Virus record (IMG/VR): IMGVR_UViG_3300025137_005045
Reading direction: 5' to 3' (one strand)
Origin: a virus
Lineage: Duplodnaviria > Caudoviricetes
Length of the DNA: 64,000 nt
Position numbers and translations under genes: made by a program. Shown piece after piece: positions 5,550 to 23,018 of the stretch. How positions within the stretch are numbered: the first letter of the stretch is position 1; the number at the start of each line of letters is the position of its first letter. The notes beneath the pieces were generated by a model. The model was not told where the DNA came from. It ran no database searches and saw nothing but the letters and a program-made list of their open reading frames with translations.

Positions 5550-5578
5550 TTGACAAAGCTATTAAATATCCGTATAAT
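5550..5578 (+). promoter_or_regulatory. sigma70-type promoter with nested TAAATA late motif
   Basis: TTGACA(5550)-N17-TATAAT(5573), a perfect consensus; TAAATA at 5563-5568. Confidence 0.8.
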
Positions 5579-6453: not shown

Positions 6454-6485
6454 TGATAAATACTAGCCTACATTAAGGAATACTT

Positions 6486-7283
6486 ATGAAAGCTAGTGAA
6501 TTTATTACAGACGCCGGTGTTGGCATTATTACAAAACAAAATACGACTGCTGACGTCAAGCCTGGCGAAACAAAAAGACAAGCCAAGAAATTAGGGATGA
6601 CGTTGGACAAGAAGAACCGTCCGCCCTTACTGCATAAAAAAGCAGTTAAGAACTCTTCACCCAATACCCTTTTTAATCTTGGCCTCAGTGAAAGTAATGC
6701 CGACGATCTTATGGCCTATGCCGACAAAATGGATCCGACGGACATAGACTATAAAAAATTTATCCGTGCCGCAAAGATAGCTAGAACAGGCAAAAAGATA
6801 CACATGGATAACTTTTTAAACACAATAGATACAGACCCTAGAGATAAAATTATTAGTATGCTAGGTGAAACCAAAGAAGCACCCAAGGGAACTTACTTCA
6901 CCAAGACAGGTAATTTGGTCAAGGGCAAACTGACCAAGGATGCCAAGACCAAGGGTGCCAGAGAAACTGACCCCAAGGACAAGATAAGAAAAAAAGTACC
7001 CAAGGTCACACAGTACAATGAGGAAGAAGACAAAGAATTTGAAACGGATCTAAAACTGCCCAATGGTAAGAAGATGGTGCTACAGGCAGATGACCCAAAA
7101 TATGTCAGAGGCATAGTGGTCAGGAGCAACAAGGATGGATCCTACGATTCATACTATTGGATTGATCATCCTGACAATGTTATGGCTATTGAAATCAAGT
7201 TGGATGATGAGAGTGTAAAGAAAGATGCCAAGATGATACATTGGGCATATCACCCTGAACTGGAAGAGCATAGGGTAAAATGA
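6486..7283 (+). CDS. modular hypothetical protein, putative internal head protein
   Basis: N-terminus MKASEFITD resembles the T4 capsid-targeting sequence; short Lys-rich modules separated by Glu; TAAATA upstream at 6457. Confidence 0.6.
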   Translation: MKASEFITDAGVGIITKQNTTADVKPGETKRQAKKLGMTLDKKNRPPLLHKKAVKNSSPNTLFNLGLSESNADDLMAYADKMDPTDIDYKKFIRAAKIARTGKKIHMDNFLNTIDTDPRDKIISMLGETKEAPKGTYFTKTGNLVKGKLTKDAKTKGARETDPKDKIRKKVPKVTQYNEEEDKEFETDLKLPNGKKMVLQADDPKYVRGIVVRSNKDGSYDSYYWIDHPDNVMAIEIKLDDESVKKDAKMIHWAYHPELEEHRVK

Positions 7284-8101
7284 GAGCAACTGACTTTACA
7301 AAAAAAGCCACGGAGCGATCTAAAATTTATCTAGATATGGATGGTGTACTTGCTGATTTCTTTTCTGAATATGCTAAATTGGCTAATGTTAAATCATATA
7401 GAGATATCCCCCCAGCTAAGGTAGATCCAATACTTAACTCTATTGCTGGCACAAATTTCTTTGCTAAGTTACCTAAGTTTCCAACAACAGACAAACTAGT
7501 TAACCTTGCTGTATCACATGCAGGTAGTTACAGTATTTGTTCAAGTCCTTTACGTAATGATTATAATAATTCAGAGTACTGGAAAAAGATTTGGATTAAA
7601 GCTAAACTAACACCACAACCAAGCACTGTAAAAATAACATCAAACAAATCTTACTACGCAGTATCAGACGGCACACCTAATATTTTAATCGACGACAAAG
7701 GTTCAAACATTATAGGATGGAGAGAAGCAGGTGGTATTGGCATTAAGTATCAAGCAGATGAAGATAGTTTAGAAGTTGTCAAGCAAGCATTAGAACTAAT
7801 ATTCTGTGATGTCAAGGATACATGTGACACGGATGAGGTAGAAGAAGACTGGTCAGAAAAATATAAAAAATCTATAGATTGTAATAGTCCAAAAGGATTT
7901 AGTCAGAAGGCACATTGTGCTGGTAAAAAGAAAAAAGCAAACGAAAACTTTGCGGATGGCAAAAAGCCTGGACGCAAAGGTTTAGCAAAACGTATGGGTG
8001 TTGACTGTAGTAAGTCAAAAACAGCATTACGTAAAATTGCCAAAAATAGCACAGGTGAGAAACAACGTATGGCCCATTTCTGTGCTAACATGAAGAAGTA
8101 G
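7280..8101 (+). CDS. HAD-family 5'(3')-deoxyribonucleotidase-like protein with basic Cys-containing C-terminal modules
   Basis: YLDMDGVLADF (DxD) and NILIDD motifs; tail modules WSEKYKKSIDCNSPKGFSQKAHCAG and NFADGKKPGRKG. Confidence 0.8.
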   Translation: MRATDFTKKATERSKIYLDMDGVLADFFSEYAKLANVKSYRDIPPAKVDPILNSIAGTNFFAKLPKFPTTDKLVNLAVSHAGSYSICSSPLRNDYNNSEYWKKIWIKAKLTPQPSTVKITSNKSYYAVSDGTPNILIDDKGSNIIGWREAGGIGIKYQADEDSLEVVKQALELIFCDVKDTCDTDEVEEDWSEKYKKSIDCNSPKGFSQKAHCAGKKKKANENFADGKKPGRKGLAKRMGVDCSKSKTALRKIAKNSTGEKQRMAHFCANMKK

Positions 8102-8109
8102 TATAAGAG

Positions 8110-8405
8110 ACAAAAAGGATCGTACACGATGAAAGTTAACGAAATTATAGTAGAAAAGAAAGAGTCCTTAGAAGAATTAGATTCTTTAATGGGAGTCAAA
8201 GATCCTGTGATATCAATTTATGATACCAAGGGTAAGTATCTTGACAGACTTAAGATGAGTATTGCGGCTAAGAAATATAAGTTTGATATGAAAACTATCA
8301 GACCACAGTTTCAAAATCAAGACAGAGTCGATCATGGCGAATACACATTAATGGCACCAGTTGCTGGTCAACCATCATAACAAAAAGGATCGTACACAAT
8401 GAAAG
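8110..8405 (+). repeat. 26-nt direct repeat (8110-8135 and 8380-8405) containing RBS and start codon
   Basis: acaaaaaggatcgtacac[g/a]atgaaag occurs twice, 270 nt apart, with one mismatch. Confidence 0.9.
8129..8380 (+). CDS. hypothetical protein with capsid-targeting-like N-terminus
   Basis: Starts MKVNEIIVE; 83 aa; bracketed by the 26-nt repeat. Confidence 0.7.
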   Translation: MKVNEIIVEKKESLEELDSLMGVKDPVISIYDTKGKYLDRLKMSIAAKKYKFDMKTIRPQFQNQDRVDHGEYTLMAPVAGQPS

Positions 8406-8944
8406 CAATTGATATTTTAACGGAAGTTAAAAAGGAACAATCACTGACACTCGAAAAATTACCCTATGGTACCGACGAATTATCTCCTGTACTGTCTAAG
8501 GAAAACGTGGAATATCATTATAATATATTGTCAAAAGGTTATGTTGATCGATATAACAACAACGAAGGCGATCCTGATTTTAATTATGGAGGAGCAAAGT
8601 TGCACAATCTGTGGTGGACACAATTGCGTAAACCGAGTGGAGCAAACTTACCAGTAGGACCTATAAAAGAATTTATTAATACCAACTTCAAAGATTATGA
8701 TAATTTTAAAGATGAAGTGTTATCAGCAGGACTGAAATTACAGGGTTCGGGTTGGATTTACCTTTCAAAAAAGGGAGAAGTAAAAACTACGCCAAATCAA
8801 TCTTATAAAACAGAGATAATGATGCCAATAGACATGTGGGAACATTCATATTCGGATTATGTTCCTGATAAAAGTGCTAAGAAAAAATACATAGAAAATG
8901 TAATGAAAATAATTAATTGGGATATTGTCAATCAGAGACTTTAA
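8399..8944 (+). CDS. sod: Fe/Mn superoxide dismutase
   Basis: LEKLPY, YH...GYV, LHNLWW, GSGWIYL and DMWEHSY; all four metal ligands are present. Confidence 0.9.
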   Translation: MKAIDILTEVKKEQSLTLEKLPYGTDELSPVLSKENVEYHYNILSKGYVDRYNNNEGDPDFNYGGAKLHNLWWTQLRKPSGANLPVGPIKEFINTNFKDYDNFKDEVLSAGLKLQGSGWIYLSKKGEVKTTPNQSYKTEIMMPIDMWEHSYSDYVPDKSAKKKYIENVMKIINWDIVNQRL

Positions 8945-8946
8945 AT

Positions 8947-9249
8947 ATGAGAGCAATCGATCTGACAGCAACACAAGGAAAAGAGCCACCTCAGGTCAGA
9001 CCTGGGCAGTATCCTGGTGAATATCTTGACCTGTCAGTTAAAGACCTAGTACCTGTACAAAAGGTTAGACACGTACATAAAACTATTAAAGCAAACAAAA
9101 AAGTTAAACAGGGAGACTATACTCCTATTGTCATTGATCGAGATAATCGTATTGTAAATGGACATCATAGATATGATGCTCTTAAAAATGCGGGTCATCA
9201 TCAAGCAAAAGTATATAAGTTAGAAAAGGATATAGAAGAGATAGTATGA
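8947..9249 (+). CDS. ParB/sulfiredoxin-like nuclease domain protein
   Basis: PIVIDRDNRIVNGHHRYDA motif; ATG 8947 is preferred over the track start 8917. Confidence 0.75.
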   Translation: MRAIDLTATQGKEPPQVRPGQYPGEYLDLSVKDLVPVQKVRHVHKTIKANKKVKQGDYTPIVIDRDNRIVNGHHRYDALKNAGHHQAKVYKLEKDIEEIV

Positions 9250-9980
9250 AAAAATTACTAATAATACTATTACTATTCACAACAACATCATTTGCATATG
9301 ATCCTAAAAACTTTAATCCAGACTTATGGCCATACATACAAGAAAGAATGTTCGGTGTTAGACCAGTTGTTGTATTAGATGCTAACGATGAGTTGATGGT
9401 GTCAGGACCTATAAGAGCTTCAAGTGGAGCACAGGTTCCAGTAAATATAAAAATTAATACAGAACGTTTTGTAAAAATACATCTGATCATCGATTCTAAT
9501 CCAACACAGCTTGCGGCCACATTTAAATTAACTAAAAATACTCAGAACACAGAAATAACGACCCGTATCAGAATGGAAACAGATAGTTACGTTCGTGTGG
9601 TAGGAGAAACTATCCGTGGAGAGCTATACACACACAAGACAGGTATCAGAGCCAGTGGCGGCTGTTCGGGTTACATGGATGTACATGATCCAGAACTTAC
9701 TCGAGACTTAGGCAAGATATTATATAAAAAGAAAGACAATGCTCATACTACCAGGATTAAACATCCTATGTTTACTGGTTTACAAAAAGATTTAGAGTCA
9801 GGTGGTTATATACCATTATGGACTGTTAAAACTATTACATGGATCGACGATGAAAATAATATTATAATGCAAGCGGATACTTACATTTCAATTTCAAAAG
9901 ATCCATATATTAAATTTAAATACAATGGTGATGTTAAAATTGTTGCCGATGATACAAAAGGAAATTCATTTAAAAAATGA
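9246..9980 (+). CDS. secreted SoxY-SoxZ-like fusion (quinoprotein dehydrogenase-associated carrier type)
   Basis: Signal peptide; TRIRMETDSYVRVVGET...IRASGGCSG (SoxY GGC arm) followed by TRIKHPMFTGLQKD (SoxZ-like). Confidence 0.75.
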   Translation: MKKLLIILLLFTTTSFAYDPKNFNPDLWPYIQERMFGVRPVVVLDANDELMVSGPIRASSGAQVPVNIKINTERFVKIHLIIDSNPTQLAATFKLTKNTQNTEITTRIRMETDSYVRVVGETIRGELYTHKTGIRASGGCSGYMDVHDPELTRDLGKILYKKKDNAHTTRIKHPMFTGLQKDLESGGYIPLWTVKTITWIDDENNIIMQADTYISISKDPYIKFKYNGDVKIVADDTKGNSFKK

Positions 9981-11299
9981 GAGCAAGACAATTTATACGA
10001 GAGTACTCCAGAGAAAAAACTCAGCAGGTGCATGGCGAGAAAATCATACAAGCACTACAGAGAGATAAGCAACCTCGTGCCGATTTAGATATATGGAACT
10101 TGCATTCAAGTAGTGGCAGTTGGAAAGACATGCACCCAAATTCCAAACAAGAGTTGTTAAACAAGATATTTGCTCAAATTGAATCAGGAGATCCTAGTAA
10201 AAACAAAGAATACAGTCAATGGTTAGCACGTATGTATTCAAAAGGTGATACACCGCTAGAAGATATTAAAAGTAAGACACGAGACGATTTAGAAAAATAT
10301 ATAGCTCTCAAGTTAAGAAAGAAACTAAAGCCCGAACACAAAGATATTAATCAAATAAAAGCACCCATTAATCTATCACAGGCAATGGCTAACTACAGTG
10401 ATGAAGAACTAGAAGCACCTGTTACAGACAAAGGTAGCAGTCGTGAAATTTATCGTGACAGTGCAATTAGAGTTATAGTGCCTAAGGATACAGCGGCGGC
10501 TTGTTATTATGGTCAAGGGACTAAATGGTGTACTGCGGCACGCAGTAACAACATGTTTGATCAGTATCACAAGATGGGAGATATGTATATCATAATGCCT
10601 ACTAAACCCAAGTACGAAGGCGAAAAGTATCAGTTCCATTTCCAAAGTGGACAGTTTATGGACGAGCAAGATCGTGATGTAGATATGTATAAGGTACTAA
10701 GACAGTATCCTTCAATACGTAATATTAAAACAATAACTGATTGGGCTAAACGTAAAACGGTACCAGCACTAATGACTGATGAAGATTATGCTGAGTGGAA
10801 AGACGAAAGCAATACACAGATACTTAACAATCGTGTAATGTACGGTGATATGTATACCTTAAGTTTAAATCAACCAGGCACTTCAATGGATTCCTGGACA
10901 ATTAGTAGTAGTACTATTAAAATGTTAACTGAAAAAAGCATGATGAAAGAATCAGAATGGTCTCAGCTAGCAGGTACAGACTACATAGCCTATGGTTGGT
11001 TTGACACAACCAGTAATACTTGTTTGGGTGTAACATATGCTGAACTAGGTGAAGATCCTGGATTTGCAGTTCAGACCATTGATAATGATCAGTTTGAAGA
11101 GGCAGTCGGGTTAAATGTTGAACCCGAAGTTGTAAAGCTAGAAAAATTCTTAAAAGGTATGGTACGAATAGAAAATGAAGCAATGGGGGATGGTTTAGCT
11201 AAAGAACAGTATGACAAAGCAGTTAACCAACTGTTGGATAGTTATGGTTACCCAATGTCAGTAACAGGATATGTAGGTGGAGAGCCAGAGAGAGCATAA
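9977..11299 (+). CDS. WCTA-motif hypothetical protein, paralog 1
   Basis: Starts MRARQFIRE; core AACYYGQGTKWCTAA...EKYQFHFQSGQFMDEQD; acidic C-terminus. Confidence 0.75.
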   Translation: MRARQFIREYSREKTQQVHGEKIIQALQRDKQPRADLDIWNLHSSSGSWKDMHPNSKQELLNKIFAQIESGDPSKNKEYSQWLARMYSKGDTPLEDIKSKTRDDLEKYIALKLRKKLKPEHKDINQIKAPINLSQAMANYSDEELEAPVTDKGSSREIYRDSAIRVIVPKDTAAACYYGQGTKWCTAARSNNMFDQYHKMGDMYIIMPTKPKYEGEKYQFHFQSGQFMDEQDRDVDMYKVLRQYPSIRNIKTITDWAKRKTVPALMTDEDYAEWKDESNTQILNNRVMYGDMYTLSLNQPGTSMDSWTISSSTIKMLTEKSMMKESEWSQLAGTDYIAYGWFDTTSNTCLGVTYAELGEDPGFAVQTIDNDQFEEAVGLNVEPEVVKLEKFLKGMVRIENEAMGDGLAKEQYDKAVNQLLDSYGYPMSVTGYVGGEPERA

Positions 11300-12516
11300 T
11301 GAGAGCAAAACAATTTATAATAGAATACGATAGAACTAAAACTGCACAGGCATTTGCCGCAAAGCTAGTTAATACTGCTATGCAAGACAACACTGTTCCG
11401 GGTGCTGTTAGAAAAAATATACAGGATAACATGACTCCTGTAGAAGCCGCTGAGATGATACTTAAAAATCAAATTGAAGTGGGTGATCCTACCAAACAGA
11501 AAAAGTATTCACAAGCCCTAGCAAAGATGTATGCCAACGGTTTAATCAAATGGGAAGACATAGGTAGCACAATGCGTGACTACTTGACTAAGTTTGCTAC
11601 TCTGGCAGTTAAAAAATTACTTAAACCTGAACACTCAGACTTTAATAGATTTAAAGATTTAAAATCATTCTATGATGTAGTTGATCAATATGAAGAGCCC
11701 GAAGGCAAAGAAAAGAGATCAAAAGGTGATGCCAAGGAAGTTTACAGAGATGCGAATGTGCGTGTCATACAGCCCGAGGACATGAATGCCGCTTGCTACT
11801 ATGGACAGGGTACACGTTGGTGTACAGCCGCAGATAGTAATAATATGTTTGATAGATATAATCAAGATGGTGATATGTATATCATAATACCCACCAAAGC
11901 CACCCACGAAGGTGAGAAGTATCAGATACATCCTGCGTCAGGACAATACATGGACGAACAAGATCGTGATGTAGAAGCAGACGATTTAATAAAACGTTTT
12001 GGTCAAGACTTCAGAACATGGTGGTTAACTATAGACCCAGACCTAGGCGGACGTATAATATTTTTCCCTAATGAAGATGAACTTAGAAAAGCCTGTGAAG
12101 AAATTAAACAGATGAGTTTAGAATTCTTAAATGACGTTATGATAGATTGGGAAATGGATGATGAAACATATTATCAGTATCTTCAGGACGAGGGGTATGT
12201 TGATGAAGAAGGTGAGTACCAGGGTGATTATCCTTCATACACAGCATACAATGATTCTGCTGGTGCATATTATGGTAATGTTTACGGTGCCCTTGATATA
12301 ACTGTAGATGAAGTGCGTGAACTAGCTAGACAAATTGAAGAAGATGACGGACGTAATCAATACATAGGCGATTTAGAAAATGTGTTTAGTATTAGTGTAG
12401 AAAACGCAATAGATAGACAAGATGGATTACCAACTACAATATACAGACAGATACAAGTAACGCTTAAAAACGGTAAAATAACTGTAGAGTACATTCCACC
12501 ACCTAAAAAAGATTAA
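11299..12516 (+). CDS. WCTA-motif hypothetical protein, paralog 2
   Basis: Starts MRAKQFIIE; core AACYYGQGTRWCTAA...EKYQIHPASGQYMDEQD; different acidic C-terminus. Confidence 0.75.
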   Translation: MRAKQFIIEYDRTKTAQAFAAKLVNTAMQDNTVPGAVRKNIQDNMTPVEAAEMILKNQIEVGDPTKQKKYSQALAKMYANGLIKWEDIGSTMRDYLTKFATLAVKKLLKPEHSDFNRFKDLKSFYDVVDQYEEPEGKEKRSKGDAKEVYRDANVRVIQPEDMNAACYYGQGTRWCTAADSNNMFDRYNQDGDMYIIIPTKATHEGEKYQIHPASGQYMDEQDRDVEADDLIKRFGQDFRTWWLTIDPDLGGRIIFFPNEDELRKACEEIKQMSLEFLNDVMIDWEMDDETYYQYLQDEGYVDEEGEYQGDYPSYTAYNDSAGAYYGNVYGALDITVDEVRELARQIEEDDGRNQYIGDLENVFSISVENAIDRQDGLPTTIYRQIQVTLKNGKITVEYIPPPKKD

Positions 12517-12549
12517 TAAATATTAGTATATAATACTCGGGGGAGTAAA

Positions 12550-12873
12550 GTGGCAGAAGATAAAAAAGTTGCAGTCCAAGCAACAGAAAAAAAACAAACA
12601 AAAAAAGTTAATTTAGAACTAGAAGTAGATGCTACAGCAAAAGATCTAGGTGTTAGTCCTTATATAAATTGGGTACATATGGCTCGTGCTGTTGATGCAT
12701 GGAGAATATTTCCAAGATTATTCTTAACTGTTTACATCATCTTATTATATAAATGTGTAATTTGGTATATGGCATTGCCTTTACCTACAATGGAACAATC
12801 AGGTTTAATCAGTATTGTAGTTGGTGCTGGTGCGGCATGGTTTGGACTTTACACAGGTTCAAGCAAAAAATAG
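12550..12873 (+). CDS. small two-TM membrane protein (holin-like candidate)
   Basis: WRIFPRLFLTVYIILLY and GLISIVVGAGAAWFGLY hydrophobic segments; RBS ggggag; TAAATA at 12517. Confidence 0.6.
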   Translation: MAEDKKVAVQATEKKQTKKVNLELEVDATAKDLGVSPYINWVHMARAVDAWRIFPRLFLTVYIILLYKCVIWYMALPLPTMEQSGLISIVVGAGAAWFGLYTGSSKK

Positions 12874-12902
12874 AACACTCCTTCCTTAGGACCGTGTAGC
12901 TT

Positions 12903-12946
12903 TGCTCCTGGCTTTAATTATTAGGAACAATAATTTAAAAGGAGCA
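12903..12946. terminator. long imperfect hairpin between convergent genes
   Basis: TGCTCC(12903)/GGAGCA(12941) outer stem and AATTATT(12916)/AATAATT(12929) inner stem. Confidence 0.5.
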
Positions 12947-12950
12947 CTAC

Positions 12951-13946
12951 TCATTTCCAACCTAATTTATCAATACGATCTAAAATATTTTTACTGTACA
13001 TCTCGTGAGTAAGTGGACCAGGATGGAGATCATCTGTGCCAAAATCTAAAAAGTTCGAATCAAAATCTGTGCCTGATCTCCCATTTATCATTATAAAATT
13101 TTTCCTGGAAGATAACATAGCACTAATTTCTACGCTATTGTGTAGTCCTACTAATAGCAAATCTACGCCAATTTTATCACAAACATTTTCTACTCTGTAT
13201 ATTGCTGATAGTGCTTCAAAAGTCCAATGATCTTCTAATAGACTAATTTCGGGTATTATTTTATCAAATTCTTTATTAGATTGATAATATCCACTGTTTA
13301 TCATTTTAATTGATTTGTTACGATACCAATAAAATCTTTCTGTACCGGTTAACCCCCATATTATTTTGTCGCCTTTTTTTAAATCAGCTCTTAAAAGTTG
13401 ATCACTAGCATACGATATACTACTACCTCCCATTGCTAAATCTATTGCAGGGAGATTAAGGTGTTTGCATACAGACTTCCAATATACTTTATCTTTATCT
13501 ACTCCAACAGAAGCAGTTGTACTACATCCTGCTATCCATATATTTGAAGAATTAGAAACTCGACGTTGAGGAACTTCGGGCTTAAATTTGTAATTTTCTT
13601 CTGAAAAAGGAATATGTAAAGGTATGTTACTAGCATTAGAAGCTATTACAGAATAGTATAGAGAAAACCATGCCATGGAGTATTTTTTGTTTATAGTCTG
13701 TTTATCTGACCAAAGATCATTGGCATTTTCAGACGGAGGATGAAATATAATTTCTGAAGATTTGAATAAAAGATTTATAAAACTTTTTAAATCAACATAT
13801 CCGAGACTTACATATACAACTCCACGATGTGTATCATTTACATTATTGGAATCTATCAAATATGCATCACTGTCTATATTTTTCGCATATTTACTGAGAT
13901 ATTCAGTGGTATCACCGACTACTATTGTTAAATTTTTACTATACAC
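12951..13946 (-). CDS. SGNH/GDSL hydrolase-like protein
   Basis: IWIAGCSTT (block I), LAMGGSS (block II) and DDLHPG (block V). Confidence 0.6.
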   Translation of the reverse strand: MYSKNLTIVVGDTTEYLSKYAKNIDSDAYLIDSNNVNDTHRGVVYVSLGYVDLKSFINLLFKSSEIIFHPPSENANDLWSDKQTINKKYSMAWFSLYYSVIASNASNIPLHIPFSEENYKFKPEVPQRRVSNSSNIWIAGCSTTASVGVDKDKVYWKSVCKHLNLPAIDLAMGGSSISYASDQLLRADLKKGDKIIWGLTGTERFYWYRNKSIKMINSGYYQSNKEFDKIIPEISLLEDHWTFEALSAIYRVENVCDKIGVDLLLVGLHNSVEISAMLSSRKNFIMINGRSGTDFDSNFLDFGTDDLHPGPLTHEMYSKNILDRIDKLGWK

Positions 13947-15891
13947 AATGTAATTGTTTCATTTTTGTTTCTTTAGTGATAAATGCTTTACCGAAATTAC
14001 GTTTACGTCCATACCAAAAGTCTTGTAAGAAACGATCAAATGTCATATCTTTATTTTCACGGAAGTCAAACTTGACCATGGTGGTTGAATCCAATGGTTC
14101 CTCATTGACAATGTATCCAAAGAAGTCATAGTCAAATGTTTTTGCTAACGGATACTGCGTTAGTTTATCGTAGTTTAATACATATGTTCTATTGTAATCT
14201 AATAGTTGTGTCATTAACTTCTCAGGTAAGTCAAACGTTTTTCTAACAAATTGTTCTATTAGATCAAACACACGATCATGCTGATGATCTGCGTGCATGG
14301 TCATCGCTGTTCTGTGTATTAGATTCCAACCATGGATAGGAACTGTTCCACCAATTAACGGATGATTAATTCTACCTTTGTCTTTCCAATTATCGTAATA
14401 TTTTCTAATTTCATCTTCTTCTTTTTTAAACCAATCATCTTGCTGTAAGAAAGGTATAAGTTTTTCATAAAATTCAGAATAGTCAATACTTTGATGTTTA
14501 TGCAGGAATCTAGCTATCCAAGTTGTAAGTCCATTCATATGAAACGTGTTTATAAACCAATTGAATACTTGCGTGTCTACCATAATGTTTCTTGGCATTG
14601 TTCCTGTTGACATAACAACTTCCACTGATTCTGCTAGACTATCATAGTTATAACTACCACTCATATAATCATATATAGGAACAGCTTCTAGTTTGTTCAT
14701 TTTACGCTGTAGTAAATTCATTTCAGCATTTTCTAATAGCTGACACTGATGTATGGTAACACCTGTATGATTTCCTAAACGAAATAACGACCAAAGATTT
14801 TCTTTCCAGGTTTCCTGTGTTTCTCCAGGTAATCCTAATATAACTTCTGTGTCAACTGGTATACCATTCTTGTTACATAGATCAAATATTTCTGTAATAT
14901 TATGTTGTCCTAGATTTTTACGTTTAATATTTTCTAAAACATCTAAGTTCATTGATTGTACTGATACTGTTAAACCTTGATTAAAGGATCCAGCTTTGAA
15001 TAATTTTTGTACTATTTTATATACATCTGCTTTTTGATTTTTAGCCCAAGTCATGCTTACACCTTGAGGAAATTTATACTTGGATTGAACTTCTAGTATT
15101 TTATCTGCTATTTCATTGTCGCGATCACGGAACATACCAAAGTTAGCATCAGCAATAGTTATATAACCACATTTATTTTTACCTATCCATTCTATTTCGT
15201 CAAGCACACGACTGTATTCAAACTTTTTAACTTTACCATATGTTAGACTACCCCAATCACAGAATGTACATTGATACGGACAACCTCTATTAGTTTCGAT
15301 AGTGGCATTCCATTCTACTTTGCCCAATGTTTCTTTCATAAGTTTATCAAATACTCCTGTCAGATAAGGGCTAGGTACATCTTCGAGATCTTTTATTCTA
15401 GGAGCGTCTGGTGTTGCTACCCGTACTCCGTTTTTATTAAGTACAACACCGTTAATTTCTTCAAGGTCAGTGCCTTGATGTAATGCTACTAGTAAATTTC
15501 TAAATGTTATTTCACCTTCTCGAACTACAACAAGATCCATGAAAGGATAAGTTTCAAAAACATTTTTCTTTTCATGTGGTATTTCTGGACCACCAAAAAA
15601 TAGAAATACATCTGGATTAACTTCTTTTAGTCGACGAGCAAGAGCATATATGTAATTACGATTCCACACATATGTTGAAAATCCAACTACTTTGTTATCT
15701 TTTAGCTGTTCAACATATTCTTCTATATCACGTCTTTCCCATATTAACTGATCTAACTCGTAATTATCTTTAACAACATCATCCTGCTGTGCATAACTCC
15801 ATAGGATACCTGCACTATAGGGAAGATAGTGGGCATTAAGCTCTATAGGGCCTTGTTGAAAATTTGGTTGACACAGACTGACTTTTTTCAT
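13939..15891 (-). CDS. B12-binding radical SAM protein
   Basis: N-terminal cobalamin-binding-type domain (LPYSAGIL, FFGGPE, VVREGE); ETNRGCPYQCTFC; IADANFG. Confidence 0.88.
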   Translation of the reverse strand: MKKVSLCQPNFQQGPIELNAHYLPYSAGILWSYAQQDDVVKDNYELDQLIWERRDIEEYVEQLKDNKVVGFSTYVWNRNYIYALARRLKEVNPDVFLFFGGPEIPHEKKNVFETYPFMDLVVVREGEITFRNLLVALHQGTDLEEINGVVLNKNGVRVATPDAPRIKDLEDVPSPYLTGVFDKLMKETLGKVEWNATIETNRGCPYQCTFCDWGSLTYGKVKKFEYSRVLDEIEWIGKNKCGYITIADANFGMFRDRDNEIADKILEVQSKYKFPQGVSMTWAKNQKADVYKIVQKLFKAGSFNQGLTVSVQSMNLDVLENIKRKNLGQHNITEIFDLCNKNGIPVDTEVILGLPGETQETWKENLWSLFRLGNHTGVTIHQCQLLENAEMNLLQRKMNKLEAVPIYDYMSGSYNYDSLAESVEVVMSTGTMPRNIMVDTQVFNWFINTFHMNGLTTWIARFLHKHQSIDYSEFYEKLIPFLQQDDWFKKEEDEIRKYYDNWKDKGRINHPLIGGTVPIHGWNLIHRTAMTMHADHQHDRVFDLIEQFVRKTFDLPEKLMTQLLDYNRTYVLNYDKLTQYPLAKTFDYDFFGYIVNEEPLDSTTMVKFDFRENKDMTFDRFLQDFWYGRKRNFGKAFITKETKMKQLHCV

Positions 15892-15916
15892 AATTTAATT
15901 ATACTTGGTTAGCTAG

Positions 15917-15954
15917 TATTTAACAAGACCTAGCTTTATCAATATAAATATTTA
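15917..15954. promoter_or_regulatory. divergent late-type promoters
   Basis: TAAATA on the - strand at 15922-15917; TATAAATA on the + strand at 15943-15950, within the palindrome TAAATATTTA. Confidence 0.6.
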
Positions 15955-15955
15955 T

Positions 15956-16246
15956 ATGGAAGAAAAATTTATTAAAGTTCATTTTAACCTCAACGTTGCA
16001 CGTCTTAAAAAGCAAACAGCCGGATATCGATTATATGTTAACGATGAGCTATTTAACGAACGCACCTGGCGATGGGACACCTTTGTTTATCTAGAAGAAA
16101 TGTTACAAATCAAGGCAGTTCCTGGTAAATATAAAGTAACAATAGAAAAATATCATCCTAGCAAGGCAAGATTTGATATAAGCAATATGAGAGTTGAGCT
16201 AGGTAATGCTCGAATTATTGAAAACAATACTATAGAGATATTATAA
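15956..16246 (+). CDS. hypothetical protein
   Basis: 96 aa (YRLYVNDELFNERTW); TAAATA-N5-ATG start. Confidence 0.7.
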   Translation: MEEKFIKVHFNLNVARLKKQTAGYRLYVNDELFNERTWRWDTFVYLEEMLQIKAVPGKYKVTIEKYHPSKARFDISNMRVELGNARIIENNTIEIL

Positions 16247-16247
16247 A

Positions 16248-16436
16248 ATGAAAATATTTGAAATTATTAAAGAAACTGCATCAGCTGGTACGACCACTGC
16301 TGGAAATATCGCTAGTGTTGCTAACCCACATGTGACCAAATACAAAGGTCCAAAGCCTAAAAAACAAAAACCCACAGACAACGCTCTAGATATGAAGGGA
16401 ACTTCGATCTTTGGTGGCCCGCTCAAAAGAGTCTAA
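16248..16436 (+). CDS. small basic protein with capsid-targeting-like N-terminus
   Basis: MKIFEIIKE followed by TASAGTTTAGNIASV. Confidence 0.65.
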   Translation: MKIFEIIKETASAGTTTAGNIASVANPHVTKYKGPKPKKQKPTDNALDMKGTSIFGGPLKRV

Positions 16437-16485
16437 TACTTTTCCTTAGTGATAAATATACTTAACGAAAAGGTTTAGGTATATT

Positions 16486-16716
16486 ATGAACATCAATGAC
16501 TTTAATGAAGACCAATTGGACCACGAGGTTCAAATGGCAAAATCAGATCTATTAGAACTAGCTAAGAATGCAATGCAAACTTACAAATTACTAGCAGAAC
16601 ACTATAACGAAGAGCGTGGGCTACCAGGCTGGGTACAATCAAAAGTAACCAAAGCCGACGACTATATGAGATCAGTACGTAAGTATCTTGAACATAAAGA
16701 AGATCACATGCTATGA
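16486..16716 (+). CDS. hypothetical protein
   Basis: MNINDFNE N-terminus; LPGWVQSKVTKADDY motif; TAAATA at 16453. Confidence 0.7.
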   Translation: MNINDFNEDQLDHEVQMAKSDLLELAKNAMQTYKLLAEHYNEERGLPGWVQSKVTKADDYMRSVRKYLEHKEDHML

Positions 16717-17150
16717 TTGTAGAAGATTTAAAAGTATTGCTAGCAAGCTCATACAGCTACTCACTGAAAGCTCAATACTTTCATTGGAATGTGGAGGGAC
16801 GTAGCTTTTCACAATTGCATGAATTTTTTGGTGATGTGTATCATGAAGTATATGACAGCATTGACACCAATGCTGAATTAATAAGACAATTAGACAGTTA
16901 TGCTCCTGGAAGTTACAATCGTTTCAGAGAATTATCAACAGTTGCTGATCAAACTAAAGTACCTAGAGCAAGCATGATGATCGAAGAATTACTTGAAGAT
17001 ACTAACAAGATGTTAGACTTAACTAAACGTATGTTTACCGTAGCTGAACAAGAAAACGAGCAAGGTATAGCAGATTTTATAGCGGACCGTATAGATGCTT
17101 TCGCAAAACACGCATGGATGATGCGTAGCTTTTTAAAGGCAAGAGATTGA
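16713..17150 (+). CDS. dps: Dps / DNA-protecting ferritin
   Basis: HWNVEGRSFSQLHEFF and IDTNAELIRQL ferroxidase signatures; KHAWMM at the C-terminus. Confidence 0.92.
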   Translation: MIVEDLKVLLASSYSYSLKAQYFHWNVEGRSFSQLHEFFGDVYHEVYDSIDTNAELIRQLDSYAPGSYNRFRELSTVADQTKVPRASMMIEELLEDTNKMLDLTKRMFTVAEQENEQGIADFIADRIDAFAKHAWMMRSFLKARD

Positions 17151-17151
17151 T

Positions 17152-18474
17152 ATGATATTAAACAATTTATTTGAATCAAAATATGGGGCGGCGGCAGGCG
17201 TAGAAACAATACGTCAATTATTGCATGCTGTGAAAAATTCAAAGGACATAGATCTTAAAGTAGGTCCGGAAATGTTTCCGTTGACATACGGTGATGCACG
17301 ATACTTGCTACAATATTTTAAAGCAAACAGAGAAGGTGGTGATGCTACTGCTGAATACTTTGGTGATGCTAACTGGATTGAAGGTATGTTAGCTAAACGT
17401 GATCACGCCATGAGTCCAGATAGATTAAAAGACATGGATCAGGAGCGTATGAAATCAAAAGACTACGATCGTATGCTAGACATACAAGAAGGTGAAGTAA
17501 GAGATACACATTGTTCACCCAAGTGTTGTGGAGCAGATGTAAAGGCAGAAGACTGTGGTTGTGCACCAGACTGTTCACATTGTAATTGTAATAAAGAAGA
17601 ATTAGAAGAATATTCACTTCAAGCTACTAATCAACAAGACAGAGAAGCAAAAATGAAATCATTGCAAGCATTGCTTACTGATCCTAACACCTCAAAAGAT
17701 CCAGATTTAAAACGAGCAGTTATGCGTAGAATGGCACAACTATCAGAAGATCAGAAGTGGCCAGCAGAATACAAAGGTTGGAAGTATAGTGAAGACGTAG
17801 AGCAGTATGATGATGTTAGTAAAAAATTCCATTATGCTACTAAAGATGGCAAGCAAGTGCCAATTGATTGGTCACCATATTCAACCATGAGCGATACACA
17901 ATTTAAAACCTGGATTGACCTAGACATGCCAACACGTAAAGCAGTTAAGGGCATTGGTCCATTAGGTGCAACTGATCTAGAACAGTTAATGAAAACTAAA
18001 CTAGGTACTCGAGCAAGACTAGCCCAAGAAGACAAACCAATGGATATTGAATTAGATGTGTTAAAATACACACGAGATGACATTGCCAAGGCAATTGCTA
18101 TAGCAAGAGGAAGTAGTGGCGATATGACCGGTGCTACTGAGCGTATTGAAGCAATGGCAGACGGTTTATCAAATCATTCAGACGTGGCAAAAGTACTAAA
18201 AATTGCAAATGAACAAAAAGAAGATGATATCACTAAAAAATTAGATCCTAAAACTAAACTAGCACTTAAAAAAGCACAAATGAGAACTGCTGGTGTTACC
18301 AAAGGCGACCCAATAGCCGCACTGGCAATGGGTTTAGAAAAAGATGTTGATCGTTTGGATAAAGAAAATGATCAAGAAGAAGCTGATATTGCAGGTCAGG
18401 CACTAGTTGACAAGTATCACAATCAAGAGTTAGAACAACTTAAAAAAAGCCTAACCAATTTACTCAGAAAGTAA
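17152..18474 (+). CDS. modular acidic protein, putative internal head polyprotein with Cys-rich module
   Basis: MILNNLFE N-terminus; modules separated by xxE; HCSPKCCGADVKAEDCGCAPDCSHCNCN segment. Confidence 0.65.
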   Translation: MILNNLFESKYGAAAGVETIRQLLHAVKNSKDIDLKVGPEMFPLTYGDARYLLQYFKANREGGDATAEYFGDANWIEGMLAKRDHAMSPDRLKDMDQERMKSKDYDRMLDIQEGEVRDTHCSPKCCGADVKAEDCGCAPDCSHCNCNKEELEEYSLQATNQQDREAKMKSLQALLTDPNTSKDPDLKRAVMRRMAQLSEDQKWPAEYKGWKYSEDVEQYDDVSKKFHYATKDGKQVPIDWSPYSTMSDTQFKTWIDLDMPTRKAVKGIGPLGATDLEQLMKTKLGTRARLAQEDKPMDIELDVLKYTRDDIAKAIAIARGSSGDMTGATERIEAMADGLSNHSDVAKVLKIANEQKEDDITKKLDPKTKLALKKAQMRTAGVTKGDPIAALAMGLEKDVDRLDKENDQEEADIAGQALVDKYHNQELEQLKKSLTNLLRK

Positions 18475-19534: not shown

Positions 19535-20309
19535 TGTTTATAAAGATATTATTACAGACGATGATATTGCTAGTCTGCTAGAGTATTTTAGATTAGTTGA
19601 TGATAGAACAGACAGCCGACCTGATGTTGTTAGTAAGCATCCTCATTGGGATAAAGATCATTGGCCGCAGGGCATTATTAAAAGAATACTTAATCAGGTA
19701 CTAGATAAAGAATATCTAGTAGAAGAAGTAATCTTTAATCATTCTAAGATTAGTTTTGGATTACATGCTGATAGCGGAGTACTTGATCAACCTATATATA
19801 AAGCCATATTGATTCCATTGGAAGTGACAGCAAACAGTGGAACAGCATTTTTTAATAATCATTGGTTGTTTCCAAGTGCTAAGTTTACACGTCAAAAATT
19901 TAATCCTTTAGATTATACAGTGTTTGACTGCGACAATAATCCTGTAAAAGTTAATCTTAAAGAATTTTTACAGAATAGAAATTTAAGTTTATTCTCAAAT
20001 TATACAGATGCATACATTAAAAATCTCATCGAGACTCGATTAAACAATACAGGTTATACTAAAACTGATGTTCGAACTAATCAATATGAAAAAATCAAAG
20101 GATACGATCCCAAAAAAACTATAGATCAAAAGGTCTATAACCAACATCTTAATCATATTGTTTATGATGATCTACAGGGACTTAGCCTAGATCAAATCGT
20201 TCCTTGGGTAACCGGAGAAGCTATAGTGTTTGACAGGACACAATTACATTGTGCTACCAGTGGACATACATCTAAGACTGGCATAACGATATTTACTGAT
20301 CTGGTTTAA
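19527..20309 (+). CDS. 2OG-Fe(II) oxygenase-like protein
   Basis: FGLHADS (HxD) and FDRTQLHCA (distal His); ATG 19527 is preferred. Confidence 0.55.
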   Translation: MVDVYKDIITDDDIASLLEYFRLVDDRTDSRPDVVSKHPHWDKDHWPQGIIKRILNQVLDKEYLVEEVIFNHSKISFGLHADSGVLDQPIYKAILIPLEVTANSGTAFFNNHWLFPSAKFTRQKFNPLDYTVFDCDNNPVKVNLKEFLQNRNLSLFSNYTDAYIKNLIETRLNNTGYTKTDVRTNQYEKIKGYDPKKTIDQKVYNQHLNHIVYDDLQGLSLDQIVPWVTGEAIVFDRTQLHCATSGHTSKTGITIFTDLV

Positions 20310-22188: not shown

Positions 22189-23018
22189 TTAAATGTCACT
22201 GTTGATATATGATTAACTGTTGCTTCTTCAGGGCACATTCTACATATTGAGTGAGGTTTTCCAAAGTTGTTAATAAACTTGTTAATGCTACCCAGACCAG
22301 ACTGCGGAGTAATCATAGTATCAGGTTGATCTAAATACGGACTCCAACTTTCATTATTCTGTTGTCCAACTTTATCTAATACGTCGTTGAGTAGCCCCCT
22401 GGTGCTACATTTATATATTATACCATTATATAATAGAGGACACTGTTGCTGGCAACAAGCGTCAAACGCAGTAGATGGATTGGAATTATGCGGTTCCATA
22501 TTGTCGTATGTTCCTTTATAGCTTTTAGTAAAATGTGTAGGTCTATTGATCTGAAATCTAAAAGTACCCGATTTCCATCTATCTATGCCATATTCGGTAA
22601 CAGACTCCCAATCGTATCTCTTAAAAATTTTATCAATGGCCGAATTTATTCTTTGGTCATCAACGTGAACTGTTATTTTAAATACCGAATTCCCAATCTC
22701 TTTCATTAGATCTACTACATCAAAATGTTTTTCAAGTAATAAGCCGTTGGTAGTAAAGCGTACTTGACTATCTGGTAAGAGTTCTCTGGTGCCAGAGATC
22801 CATTCTCGAACTTGAGGATTGATCAACGGTTCTCCACCCATGAGTCCAAAGTCAGAAATATTAATCTTTTTTAACCATTTAGATAGATCTTCTTTACCTT
22901 GTTCCCAGGGAACAAATCCTCCAAATTTTAAATCTGAGTAGTTAGTACACCCAGTGCAACTTAGATTGCATACTTGGGTCAGCATTGTTTCAACAAAGGG
23001 TAAAGTAGGTTTAATCAT
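22185..23018 (-). CDS. radical SAM protein
   Basis: CNLSCTGC, LMGGEPLINP and FTTNGLLL; C-terminal Cys cluster (CCQQQC, CS, ICRMC). Confidence 0.88.
   Translation of the reverse strand: MIKPTLPFVETMLTQVCNLSCTGCTNYSDLKFGGFVPWEQGKEDLSKWLKKINISDFGLMGGEPLINPQVREWISGTRELLPDSQVRFTTNGLLLEKHFDVVDLMKEIGNSVFKITVHVDDQRINSAIDKIFKRYDWESVTEYGIDRWKSGTFRFQINRPTHFTKSYKGTYDNMEPHNSNPSTAFDACCQQQCPLLYNGIIYKCSTRGLLNDVLDKVGQQNNESWSPYLDQPDTMITPQSGLGSINKFINNFGKPHSICRMCPEEATVNHISTVTFK

What the first reader, a model, noticed from the sequence alone, without database searches (positions are those of the whole stretch)
6486..18474. Cluster of enzymes and effectors carrying a T4-style capsid-targeting N-terminus
Seen: unrelated ORFs share a short N-terminus: MKASEFITD (6486), MRATDFTKKATE (7280), MKVNEIIVE (8129), MKAIDILTE (8399, SOD), MRARQFIRE (9977), MRAKQFIIE (11299), MKIFEIIKE (16248), MNINDFNE (16486) and MILNNLFE (17152). 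They lie downstream of TAAATA motifs. Established: T4 internal proteins use a roughly 10-aa capsid-targeting sequence (MKTYQEFIAE) that the prohead protease cleaves after Glu. Inference: the phage loads a toolkit (nucleotidase, SOD, ParB-like protein, WCTA paralogs) into the head and injects it with the DNA. This would be a pre-made anti-defence and anti-oxidant payload, extensible by adding a 9-aa tag.
Basis: partly seen in the sequence, partly recalled or inferred. Interest (0 to 1): 0.78.

Follow-up and report, generated by a model that had tools for sequence, protein, structure and literature searches.

The report
T4-like head-targeting leaders on phage enzymes
A marine jumbo phage puts the same roughly 9-residue leader, very like the phage T4 signal that loads proteins into the head, on a cluster of unrelated enzymes, so its injected proteins may be readable from sequence alone, though packaging is not yet shown.

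Summary
All nine N-termini read as reported, and a tenth, MRAIDLTAT at 8947, fits too. In the window a strict pattern matches 6 of 94 gene starts and 0 of 479 internal Met (p=1.7e-5), all inside 6.5-16.3 kb.

The window is part of a marine jumbo myophage with a T4-type DNA polymerase. A relative about 82% identical in one protein carries T4-type portal, S77 prohead protease and gp23 capsid genes.

- The leader is an add-on. The SOD fold starts about 13 residues in.
- 115 of 116 marine SOD homologues with the LPY landmark have a variable leader containing a hydrophobic-x-Glu site. A Vibrio jumbo-phage SOD has no leader.
- A matrix trained only on these leaders ranks T4 ipIII, ipII and gp24 at 1, 2 and 4 of 271 T4 ORFs.
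- PA5oct homologues of the SOD and the WCTA protein were detected in virions.

Best reading (about 0.6): a T4-type capsid-targeting propeptide on late accessory proteins. Packaging, cleavage and injection are untested. The nucleotidase, ParB-like and 6486 leaders lack the Glu site. Only two genes have a late-promoter-like motif directly upstream.

The scan noted similar leaders elsewhere in this genome; I could not check them.

The parts
6455..6462 (+). GATAAATA, a T4-late-promoter-like motif 24 nt upstream of the first tagged gene
   Evidence: [GT]ATAAATA is rarer than base composition predicts, and 5 of 8 copies in the window and 10 of 13 in the relative lie within 50 nt upstream of a start codon on the same strand. 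In the relative these include portal, baseplate and tail-fibre-region genes.
6486..7283 (+). Tagged ORF, 265 aa, Lys-rich (pI 9.3), no known family. The leader MKASEFITD ends in Asp, not Glu.
7280..8101 (+). Tagged 5'(3')-deoxyribonucleotidase (HAD, DMDGV motif) with about 10 extra N-terminal residues and a C-terminal basic Cys-containing module
   Evidence: PHROG 2643, E=6e-22, match starts at residue 12; 118 of 120 homologues keep a 12-28-residue leader, mostly 14-15, without a conserved Glu site; the C-terminal module is the N-terminal module of a separate tagged ORF in the relative.
8129..8380 (+). Tagged ORF, 83 aa, leader MKVNEIIVE, unknown family
   Evidence: The 18 nt upstream are identical to those before 8399.
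8399..8944 (+). Tagged Fe/Mn superoxide dismutase, leader MKAIDILTE. The fold starts near residue 14 and the four metal ligands are kept.
   Evidence: Pfam Sod_Fe_N from residue 17 and Sod_Fe_C; alignment to PDB 1ues, query residue 19 = chain residue 6; leaders across 120 homologues.
8947..9249 (+). ParB-like nuclease-domain ORF, 100 aa. The N-terminus MRAIDLTAT has the seed but no Glu site.
   Evidence: PHROG 620, E=1e-8
9977..11299 (+). WCTA paralogue 1, 440 aa, leader MRARQFIRE then an invariant Tyr. Fold has no solved relative.
   Evidence: PA5oct homologue gp205 is flagged ESI-MS/MS.
11299..12516 (+). WCTA paralogue 2, 405 aa, leader MRAKQFIIE
16248..16436 (+). Tagged small basic ORF, 62 aa, pI 10.1, leader MKIFEIIKE followed by TASAGTTTAGNIASVANP
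   Evidence: A similar ETASAGASSAGGIASVAKP stretch is seen by eye in PA5oct virion protein gp203. tblastn did not report it.
16451..16458 (+). GATAAATA late-promoter-like motif 28 nt upstream of 16486
16486..16716 (+). ORF, 76 aa, with variant leader MNINDFNE. The apparent counterpart ORF in a relative, similar in its first 20 residues, starts with the canonical MKANEFVNE.
   Evidence: L003:6322
17152..18474 (+). ORF, 440 aa, with variant leader MILNNLFE. The apparent counterpart in a relative starts MIVTDLFTE. Unknown family.

Best explanation
The shared N-terminus is a T4-type capsid-targeting leader (CTS).

Proposed mechanism. The phage is a marine jumbo myovirus with a T4-like head-assembly set: gp20 portal, S77 gp21-type prohead protease, an acidic core protein, a scaffold and a gp23 capsid protein. 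Accessory proteins made late with the leader M-[K/R]-x-x-[E/D/Q]-[F/I/L]-[I/L]-x-E are carried into the scaffolding core of the prohead. Where the leader ends in (L/I/V/F)-x-Glu, the prohead protease removes it. The mature protein stays in the head with the DNA and enters the next host at injection.

Cargo in this window: an Fe/Mn SOD, a deoxyribonucleotidase with basic Cys modules, a ParB-like nuclease-domain protein, two PcfJ-like 'WCTA' paralogues and several small basic or unknown proteins.

Shown here: the motif, its clustering, its status as an add-on, its likeness to the T4 CTS, the protease in a close relative, and virion detection of two PA5oct homologues. Inferred: targeting, cleavage and injection.
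For: 1. The motif is confined to a cluster and enriched at true N-termini.

2. It is an extension, not part of the enzyme folds.
- The SOD fold starts about 13 residues in.
- The nucleotidase core starts near residue 12-15.
- The AF2 model of WCTA leaves residues 1-11 without secondary structure, and residues 1-6 score below pLDDT 50.

3. The leader varies while the junction stays fixed.
- 115 of 116 marine SOD homologues with the LPY landmark have a hydrophobic-x-Glu site in the leader.
- The P3 residue is L or I in 101 of those.
- The site lies 9-13 residues before LPY in 106, while propeptide length (to the first such site) runs mostly from 5 to 22 residues.
- The related Vibrio phage 2.275.O SOD has no leader.

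4. The same canonical leader sits on other families in relatives: HicA-like, Amidoligase_2, DUF6321 and SOD.

5. A matrix trained only on the marine leaders, with one inserted residue allowed, ranks T4 ORFs as follows out of 271: ipIII 1st, ipII 2nd, gp24 4th, gp2 8th, ipI 15th. The first, second and fourth are known gp21 substrates (PMC5694885). My hypergeometric estimate for 3 of the top 4 falling in a set of 10 is about 1.4e-4.

6. The close relative G001 encodes Portal_T4, Peptidase_S77 and Gp23.
- Its scaffold-like protein has 22 [LI]xE sites.
- Its capsid protein has 4 such sites in the 42 residues before the Gp23 profile begins.
- The small ORF after the portal gene starts MNILEFFE.

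7. PA5oct, a cultured relative with virion mass spectrometry, gives indirect support.
- SOD homologue gp261 (leader MNDSIKKYISIAE|AA), WCTA homologue gp205 (MKLFEVFTLYE) and the portal-adjacent gp150 (MKINDIITEG) are all flagged ESI-MS/MS.
- Matrix scores of 4 bits or more occur in 4 of 93 MS-positive and 3 of 391 other ORFs (p=0.028).

8. GATAAATA precedes both tagged operons and, in G001, the portal, baseplate and tail-fibre-region genes.

Established T4 facts come from PMC3012670, PMC5694885 and PMC8442874 (CTS = MKTYQEFIAE).
Against: - There are no virion, cleavage or expression data for this phage or any close relative.
- The PA5oct list of 93 proteins also holds ribonucleotide reductase, thymidylate synthase, ligase and others. 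Its authors of the 93 'virion-unrelated enzymes'. Detection there is weak proof of packaging.
- The PA5oct enrichment is marginal, and its overall score distribution does not differ between MS-positive and other ORFs.
- Three of ten leaders in the window lack a Glu site. The nucleotidase family conserves its leader without a conserved hydrophobic-x-Glu.
- In the WCTA family the leader is nearly invariant along with the next residues. There it could simply be part of the protein.
- A perfect sigma-70-type promoter at 5550-5578 could drive early read-through. GATAAATA also precedes non-structural genes at 4542 and 42009.
- The prohead protease was found in a relative, not in the window's own genome, which is not held.
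Confidence: 0.6

Rival explanations
1. The shared start is a by-product of how these genes are made and moved. New cassettes enter a hyperplastic region by recombination at a conserved 5' segment, or by duplication. They inherit the same first codons (ATG AGA GCA ...), which may also favour translation initiation. On this reading the peptide has no targeting role.
For: - Four genes start ATGAGAGCA, and 8129 and 8399 share 18 identical upstream bases.
- The cluster lies just upstream of the DNA polymerase and its gene content differs between relatives.
- Modules move between ORFs.
- Most tagged genes are translationally coupled.
Against: - Conservation is at the residue level, with F/I/L and E/D/Q exchanges, across homologues down to about 35% identity. 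115 of 120 WCTA homologues score 4 bits or more.
- SOD leaders differ completely in sequence and length yet keep a hydrophobic-x-Glu at a fixed distance from the fold.
- The same motif heads a portal-adjacent ORF far from the cluster.
- The marine matrix picks out the proven T4 head propeptides.
- Cassette exchange through a conserved leader is also what is described for T4 internal-protein loci (my own knowledge), so this rival is compatible with targeting rather than opposed to it.
Confidence: 0.2
2. The leader is a recognition tag for a different machine, such as the phage's own AAA+ protease or a chaperone (a Lon-like protease is encoded at 535-2844; PA5oct encodes ClpX, ClpA, ClpS, ClpP and FtsH). 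It would set the stability or timing of these proteins inside the infected cell, not their packaging.
For: - A Lon-like protease is in the window and Clp/FtsH genes are in PA5oct.
- The leader is predicted to be exposed and unstructured.
- The WCTA family keeps an invariant Tyr right after the Glu.
Against: - The motif has no known likeness to Lon or Clp degrons.
- This rival does not explain the match to T4 ipII, ipIII and gp24.
- It does not explain the portal-adjacent tagged ORFs.
- It does not explain the virion detection of PA5oct homologues.
Confidence: 0.1
3. Chance resemblance among AT-rich gene starts that often begin MK or MR.
For: MK and MR starts are common in this 35% GC genome.
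Against: - 0 of 479 internal Met match, against 6-8 of 94 gene starts, all within about 11 kb.
- The motif recurs in six related loci and across hundreds of homologues.
Confidence: 0.02

Closest known systems
Phage T4 capsid-targeting sequence of internal proteins IPI-III (MKTYQEFIAE) and the 10-residue gp24 propeptide (MAKINELLRE), both removed by prohead protease gp21
   Same: - A short N-terminal leader: Met, basic residue, acidic or amide residue, two hydrophobic residues, x, Glu.
- It sits on otherwise unrelated, non-essential-looking proteins.
- The phage has a gp21-family (S77) protease and a gp20/gp22/gp23-type head pathway.
- The marine matrix ranks ipIII, ipII and gp24 at 1, 2 and 4 of 271 T4 ORFs.
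   Different: - The leader is one residue shorter than in T4.
- There are 10 or more tagged genes in this window alone, against three IPs plus Alt in T4.
- The cargo includes recognisable enzymes (SOD, nucleotidase, ParB-like; HicA-like and amidoligase in relatives), not small basic DNA-binding or anti-restriction proteins.
- Several leaders lack the Glu.
- Nothing has been tested experimentally.
Propeptide-bearing ejection and inner-body proteins of phiKZ and SPN3US giant phages
   Same: Many head-internal proteins are processed after Glu by a T4-related prohead protease, and their N-terminal propeptides are thought to target them to the prohead (PMC5694885).
   Different: - Most of those propeptides are longer than 100 residues, and the cleavage motif is A/S/G-x-E.
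- Those phages are a different lineage (virion RNA polymerase, phage nucleus).
- Here the leaders are 8-20 residues, with L/I/V/F at P3.
Pseudomonas phage PA5oct virion-associated proteins gp150, gp205 and gp261 (Lood et al. 2020, PMC7318152)
   Same: - gp205 is a homologue of the WCTA proteins (about 30% identity over about 240 residues).
- gp261 is a homologue of the SOD (37%).
- Both, and the portal-adjacent gp150, start with leaders of the same kind and were detected by ESI-MS/MS of phage particles.
   Different: - The paper does not mention a CTS, propeptides or cleavage in its main text.
- The GenBank record names gp261 only 'hypothetical protein'.
- The particle list also holds clear non-structural enzymes.
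SODs packaged in virions of giant eukaryotic viruses (chlorovirus PBCV-1, Megavirus); from my own knowledge, not checked here
   Same: A virus carries its own superoxide dismutase into the next cell inside the particle.
   Different: Those are Cu,Zn enzymes of eukaryotic viruses with no known short targeting leader. Here the enzyme is a truncated Fe/Mn SOD in a tailed phage, and packaging is only inferred.

Membership tests
T4-type CTS / gp21-processed head-internal proteins | An N-terminal leader of about 10-20 residues resembling the T4 CTS | tested here: met
   A matrix built from the marine leaders ranks T4 ipIII, ipII and gp24 at 1, 2 and 4, and ipI at 15, of 271 T4 ORFs. The T4 CTS sequence is confirmed in PMC8442874 and in the T4 genome.
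T4-type CTS / gp21-processed head-internal proteins | The leader ends in a cleavage site after Glu; for T4 this is (L/I)-x-E (my own knowledge) | tested here: inconclusive
   Present in 8129 (IVE), 8399 (LTE), 9977 (IRE), 11299 (IIE), 16248 (IKE), 17152 (LFE) and 16486 (FNE). Absent in 6486 (ITD), 8947 and, in L/I form, 7280 (ATE only). The nucleotidase family lacks a conserved Glu. The SOD family has the site in 115 of 116.
T4-type CTS / gp21-processed head-internal proteins | The phage encodes a gp21-family prohead protease and a scaffolding core | tested here: met
   Peptidase_S77 at 92 bits (cut-off 27), Portal_T4 and Gp23 in the contig of a close relative. The window's own genome is not held, so this is by proxy.
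T4-type CTS / gp21-processed head-internal proteins | Late expression, together with head assembly | tested here: inconclusive
   GATAAATA stands at both operon heads and before structural genes in the relative. A 12/12 sigma-70-type promoter lies at 5550-5578. No RNA data.
T4-type CTS / gp21-processed head-internal proteins | The protein is present in mature virions with the leader removed | not testable with these tools
   Indirect only: PA5oct gp261, gp205 and gp150 are flagged ESI-MS/MS. Peptide-level data are not held.
T4-type CTS / gp21-processed head-internal proteins | The leader is sufficient to package a foreign protein | not testable with these tools
   Needs a leader-reporter fusion in a cultured relative.
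Fe/Mn superoxide dismutase (ORF 8399-8944) | Both Pfam domains above the curated cut-offs, and the four metal ligands | tested here: met
   Sod_Fe_N 40.4 bits (cut-off 27) and Sod_Fe_C 70.8 bits (cut-off 20.9). His in YHYN, His in LHNLWW, and Asp and His in DMWEH align with the ligand positions of 1ues. The N-terminal domain is shortened: only positions 3-41 of the 82-position profile match.
5'(3')-deoxyribonucleotidase (HAD, NT5C) (ORF 7280-8101) | Family profile match and the DxDxV nucleophile motif | tested here: met
   PHROG 2643, E=6e-22. The sequence reads YLDMDGVLADF. Many homologues carry PF06941. Pfam itself gave no hit for this ORF at E<=0.01.
PcfJ-like (PF14284) (ORFs 9977 and 11299) | A significant profile or fold match | tested here: not met
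   No Pfam hit. Only an Atlas feature lead, in a cluster where 26% of members carry PcfJ, and Foldseek rows at E=0.08-0.17. No PDB match.

The most novel reading that the evidence does not exclude
A widespread clade of marine jumbo myophages, and the PA5oct-like Pseudomonas phages, use a short portable leader as a general address label for the head. If so, the set of proteins injected with the DNA can be read directly from genomes and metagenomes. It would include enzymes not known as phage virion cargo: an Fe/Mn SOD, a nucleotidase carrying swappable C-terminal modules such as HicA-like domains, and amidoligase, ParB-like and PcfJ-like proteins. Some of these would be released from multi-module precursors at internal x-x-Glu junctions.
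Probability: 0.4. Interest if true: 0.75.

Novelty: new variant of a known kind. Interest (0 to 1): 0.62.

Why it matters
- What a phage injects besides DNA is known for only a few model phages and usually needs virion proteomics. If this leader is a working address label, the injected protein set of an uncultured, globally distributed group of marine jumbo phages could be predicted from sequence.
- It would point to pre-made enzymes, with an SOD first among them, acting in the first seconds of infection.
- It would give a short natural tag for loading foreign proteins into large-capsid phages, as the T4 CTS is already used.
- It would also extend the T4 CTS principle well beyond the T-even phages.
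- I found no paper describing it for this lineage.

Tried and rejected
- Whole-genome scan: not possible, because no genome is held for the window. I used the 64-kb window and a 115-kb contig of a relative instead.
- megablast of the cluster against isolated phages: no match.
- tblastn of ORF 17152 against phages: no match.
- Function of the WCTA domain. The AF2 model is good (pLDDT 84.5), but Foldseek against PDB gave nothing at E<=0.001. AFDB clusters gave only uncharacterised proteins and weak PcfJ-like rows. Function stays unknown.
- Atlas searches of ORFs 6486 and 17152: no usable hit, and the Atlas models score pLDDT about 0.52.
- PA5oct supplementary peptide tables, to look for semi-tryptic N-termini: not held.
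- Strict regex on PA5oct. It gave only 8 hits and missed GTG starts, so I replaced it with a matrix test, which was marginal.
- Arch Virol 2025 'moraphage' paper: nothing relevant to these leaders, SOD or PA5oct.
- Complex prediction was not run. The binding partner of the T4 CTS is itself not defined, and protease-substrate or scaffold pairs are poor cases for that test.
- Rejected idea: that the leader is part of the SOD or nucleotidase fold.

Full report
**What the window is.** The 64-kb window is AT-rich (33-40% GC) and densely coded, mostly on the + strand.
- It encodes a T4-type family B DNA polymerase at 24106-26763. The best tblastn hits, at 43-45% identity, are jumbo myophages: Sinorhizobium Phosso, Serratia BF, Yersinia fHe-Yen9-04 and the Erwinia pEa_SNUABM phages.
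- It also encodes a Lon-like protease, a MoxR-type ATPase, radical-SAM enzymes and a SoxYZ fusion.
- No nucleotide match exists among isolated phages, and no whole genome is held.
- IMG/VR holds relatives. The closest is a 115-kb contig, G001, 82% identical in the WCTA protein and estimated at about one third of a genome. So this is an uncultured marine jumbo myophage of the broad Rak2/PA5oct-like, T4-core lineage.

**The observation.** The ParB-like ORF at 8947 (MRAIDLTAT) belongs with them.
- A strict pattern matches 6 of 94 called gene starts and none of 479 internal Met residues (p=1.7e-5). A looser one matches 8 of 94 against 0 (p=4e-7). All hits lie between 6486 and 17152.
- In G001 the same patterns hit only the syntenic cluster upstream of the polymerase and one 74-residue ORF directly after the portal gene, MNILEFFE.
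- Five further related loci show dozens of such starts in the same region, on changing sets of genes.
- The seed M[KR]xx[EDQ][FILMV] and a hydrophobic-x-Glu ending at residue 8-11 occur together far more often than apart: 25 of 39 against 31 of 260.
- These patterns were written after seeing the data, and orthologues inflate the counts. The effect is still far beyond chance.

**The leader is an add-on.**
- For the SOD, Pfam Sod_Fe_N begins at residue 17. Alignment to solved SODs puts chain residue 6 at query residue 19. About 13 residues therefore precede the fold, and the four metal ligands are kept.
- Among 120 marine homologues, 116 contain the LPY landmark, and every one of those has an N-terminal extension. 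The extensions differ widely: MKAIDILTE, MRASDFLTE, MKIRQLFE, MIIMEVTE, MNQDIRKYINLFE, MSLMRQYIDIVE and others.
- 115 of the 116 contain a hydrophobic-x-Glu. P3 is L or I in 101. The site lies 9-13 residues before LPY in 106.
- The SOD of the cultured Vibrio jumbo phage 2.275.O starts directly at the fold and sits among replication and translation genes.
- The nucleotidase carries about 10 extra residues before the YLDMDGV nucleophile motif.
- In the AF2 model of the WCTA protein, residues 1-11 have no secondary structure and residues 1-6 score below pLDDT 50, ahead of a confident fold.

**Likeness to the T4 signal.** The literature gives the following.
- T4 internal proteins carry a roughly 10-residue CTS, MKTYQEFIAE. 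It directs them, or any fused foreign protein, into the scaffolding core.
- gp21 removes it, and gp21 cuts after Glu.
- gp24, gp23 and Alt also lose N-terminal propeptides (PMC3012670, PMC5694885, PMC8442874).

I confirmed MKTYQEFIAE at the starts of ipII and ipIII, and MAKINELLRE at gp24, in the T4 genome.

I built a position matrix only from the marine leaders, allowed one inserted residue at a 2-bit penalty, and ranked 271 T4 ORFs. The results were ipIII 1st, ipII 2nd, gp61.1 3rd (a 54-residue hypothetical, MKTFKEFIKE), gp24 4th, gp2 8th (the DNA-end protector) and ipI 15th. Three of the top four are among the ten or so known gp21 substrates, which I estimate at about 1.4e-4 by chance.

**The machinery.** G001 encodes Portal_T4 (339 bits), Peptidase_S77 (92 bits against a cut-off of 27) and Gp23 (325 bits) in the T4 order. 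Between them lie a 21.6%-Glu core-like protein and a 363-residue scaffold-like protein.
- The scaffold-like protein has 22 [LI]xE sites.
- The capsid protein has four such sites in the 42 residues before the Gp23 profile starts at residue 54, as expected for a removable delta-piece.

**Timing.**
- [GT]ATAAATA, close to the T4 late promoter TATAAATA (my own knowledge), occurs less often than base composition predicts. Yet 10 of 13 copies in G001 and 5 of 8 in the window lie within 50 nt upstream of a start codon on the same strand (p=4e-14 and 3e-6).
- In G001 it precedes the portal gene and genes in the baseplate, tail-fibre and tail regions, as well as the tagged nucleotidase.
- In the window it precedes 6486 and 16486, the first genes of the two tagged operons. 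The other tagged genes are translationally coupled.
- It also precedes genes that do not look structural (4542, 42009). A perfect TTGACA-17-TATAAT lies at 5550-5578, one gene upstream. Late expression is therefore likely but not established.

**Evidence from a cultured relative.** PA5oct (287 kb) has virion ESI-MS/MS flags in its GenBank record.
- Its WCTA homologue gp205 (MKLFEVFTLYE), its SOD homologue gp261 (MNDSIKKYISIAE|AASS, annotated only as hypothetical) and the small ORF after the portal gene, gp150 (MKINDIITEG), are all flagged.
- Further flagged proteins start VKIKDILVE, VRLNEINLIE, MKILEFNLTE and MHLFELFDQIE.
- The marine matrix scores 4 bits or more in 4 of 93 flagged and 3 of 391 other ORFs (p=0.028). 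One of the three others is a 64-residue ORF in the same operon as two flagged proteins.
- This support is modest. The flagged list also contains ribonucleotide reductase, thymidylate synthase, ligase and ClpP, and the authors class 7 of the 93 as virion-unrelated enzymes. Peptide-level data were not available. In its main text the paper does not discuss a CTS or processing.

**Cargo.**
- In the window: a shortened Fe/Mn SOD; a HAD nucleotidase with a basic Cys module; a ParB-like nuclease-domain protein; two WCTA paralogues of unknown fold (weak PcfJ-like leads only); small Lys-rich proteins; and two acidic unknowns.
- The nucleotidase's basic Cys module recurs, directly after a leader, as the start of a separate ORF in G001.
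- In relatives the same leader heads HicA-like, Amidoligase_2 and DUF6321 proteins. Many nucleotidase homologues carry C-terminal HicA fusions.
- An untagged Dps/ferritin-like gene (16713-17150) and a signal-peptide SoxYZ sit in the cluster but do not carry the leader.

**What does not fit.**
- 6486 ends in Asp. 8947 and 7280 lack an (L/I)xE.
- The nucleotidase family keeps a conserved leader, typically M[RQK][AS]x[ED][LF]IRATxNTK or MRAx[ED]FT[RLK]KA..., 14-15 residues long in most of the 118 of 120 homologues that carry the landmark, but with no conserved Glu. Those proteins may be targeted without cleavage, cut elsewhere, or not be cargo.
- In the WCTA family the leader and the following residues are nearly invariant (115 of 120; E9 and Y10 invariant in a 46-sequence alignment). 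That is also what an ordinary conserved N-terminus would look like.

**Verdict.** The feature is real, conserved and non-random. The best explanation, at about 0.6, is a T4-type capsid-targeting propeptide used on an unusually large and enzyme-rich set of accessory proteins in a lineage where it has not been described. The main rival is inheritance of a common 5' cassette end with no targeting role (about 0.2). Earlier notes of this scan report further leader-bearing genes 60-170 kb upstream in the same genome, near head genes. I could not verify them, because that DNA is not held.

Noticed in passing
window:9246-9980: A SoxY-SoxZ fusion protein with a Sec-type signal peptide (MKKLLIILLLFTTTSFA) sits inside the tagged cluster but carries no leader. 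It is present in the relatives too.
   Followed up: partly
window:16713-17150: A Dps/ferritin-like gene (Pfam Ferritin, E=1e-20) lies between tagged ORFs, without the leader. Together with the SOD it gives the cluster an oxidative-stress flavour.
   Followed up: partly
window:5550-5578: A perfect sigma-70-type promoter (TTGACA, 17 nt, TATAAT; 12 of 12) lies upstream of the 281-residue ORF at 5608, one gene before the first tagged operon.
   Followed up: no
window:8108-8128 and 8378-8398: The 18 bases ACAAAAAGGATCGTACAC are identical directly upstream of the start codons of 8129 and 8399, suggesting duplication or cassette exchange of the ribosome-binding region.
   Followed up: partly
T4 genome NC_000866 18966-19130 (L035): T4 gp61.1, a 54-residue hypothetical protein next to the primase gene, starts MKTFKEFIKE. 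It ranks third of 271 T4 ORFs with the marine leader matrix, between the internal proteins and gp24. Whether it is packaged is unknown to me.
   Followed up: partly
P0036, P0087, P0103 (SOD homologues); L001:4729-6225 (PA5oct gp203): A second, different leader type, MD[IL]xxLK[KQ]LAGI..., heads some SOD homologues. It resembles the start of PA5oct virion protein gp203 (MFNINDILRLAGV).
   Followed up: no
window:9977-10009 and homologues P0122-P0241: The WCTA family keeps Glu9-Tyr10 invariant. If cut after Glu9, the mature protein would start with Tyr, a bacterial N-end-rule destabilising residue. That would make an injected protein short-lived. This is speculation.
   Followed up: no
P0243, P0245, P0250-P0253 and others: Many homologues of the tagged nucleotidase carry a C-terminal HicA_toxin domain. 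The window's copy carries a basic Cys module instead.
   Followed up: partly
window:12951-15891 and 20293-23018 (- strand): Minus-strand cassettes interrupt the plus-strand tagged operons: a large 650-residue ORF of radical-SAM type with an SGNH-like partner, and a second 631-residue ORF. Earlier notes of this scan describe them.
   Followed up: no
window:535-2844: A 769-residue Lon-like ATP-dependent protease (PHROG 4871, E=3e-231).
   Followed up: no
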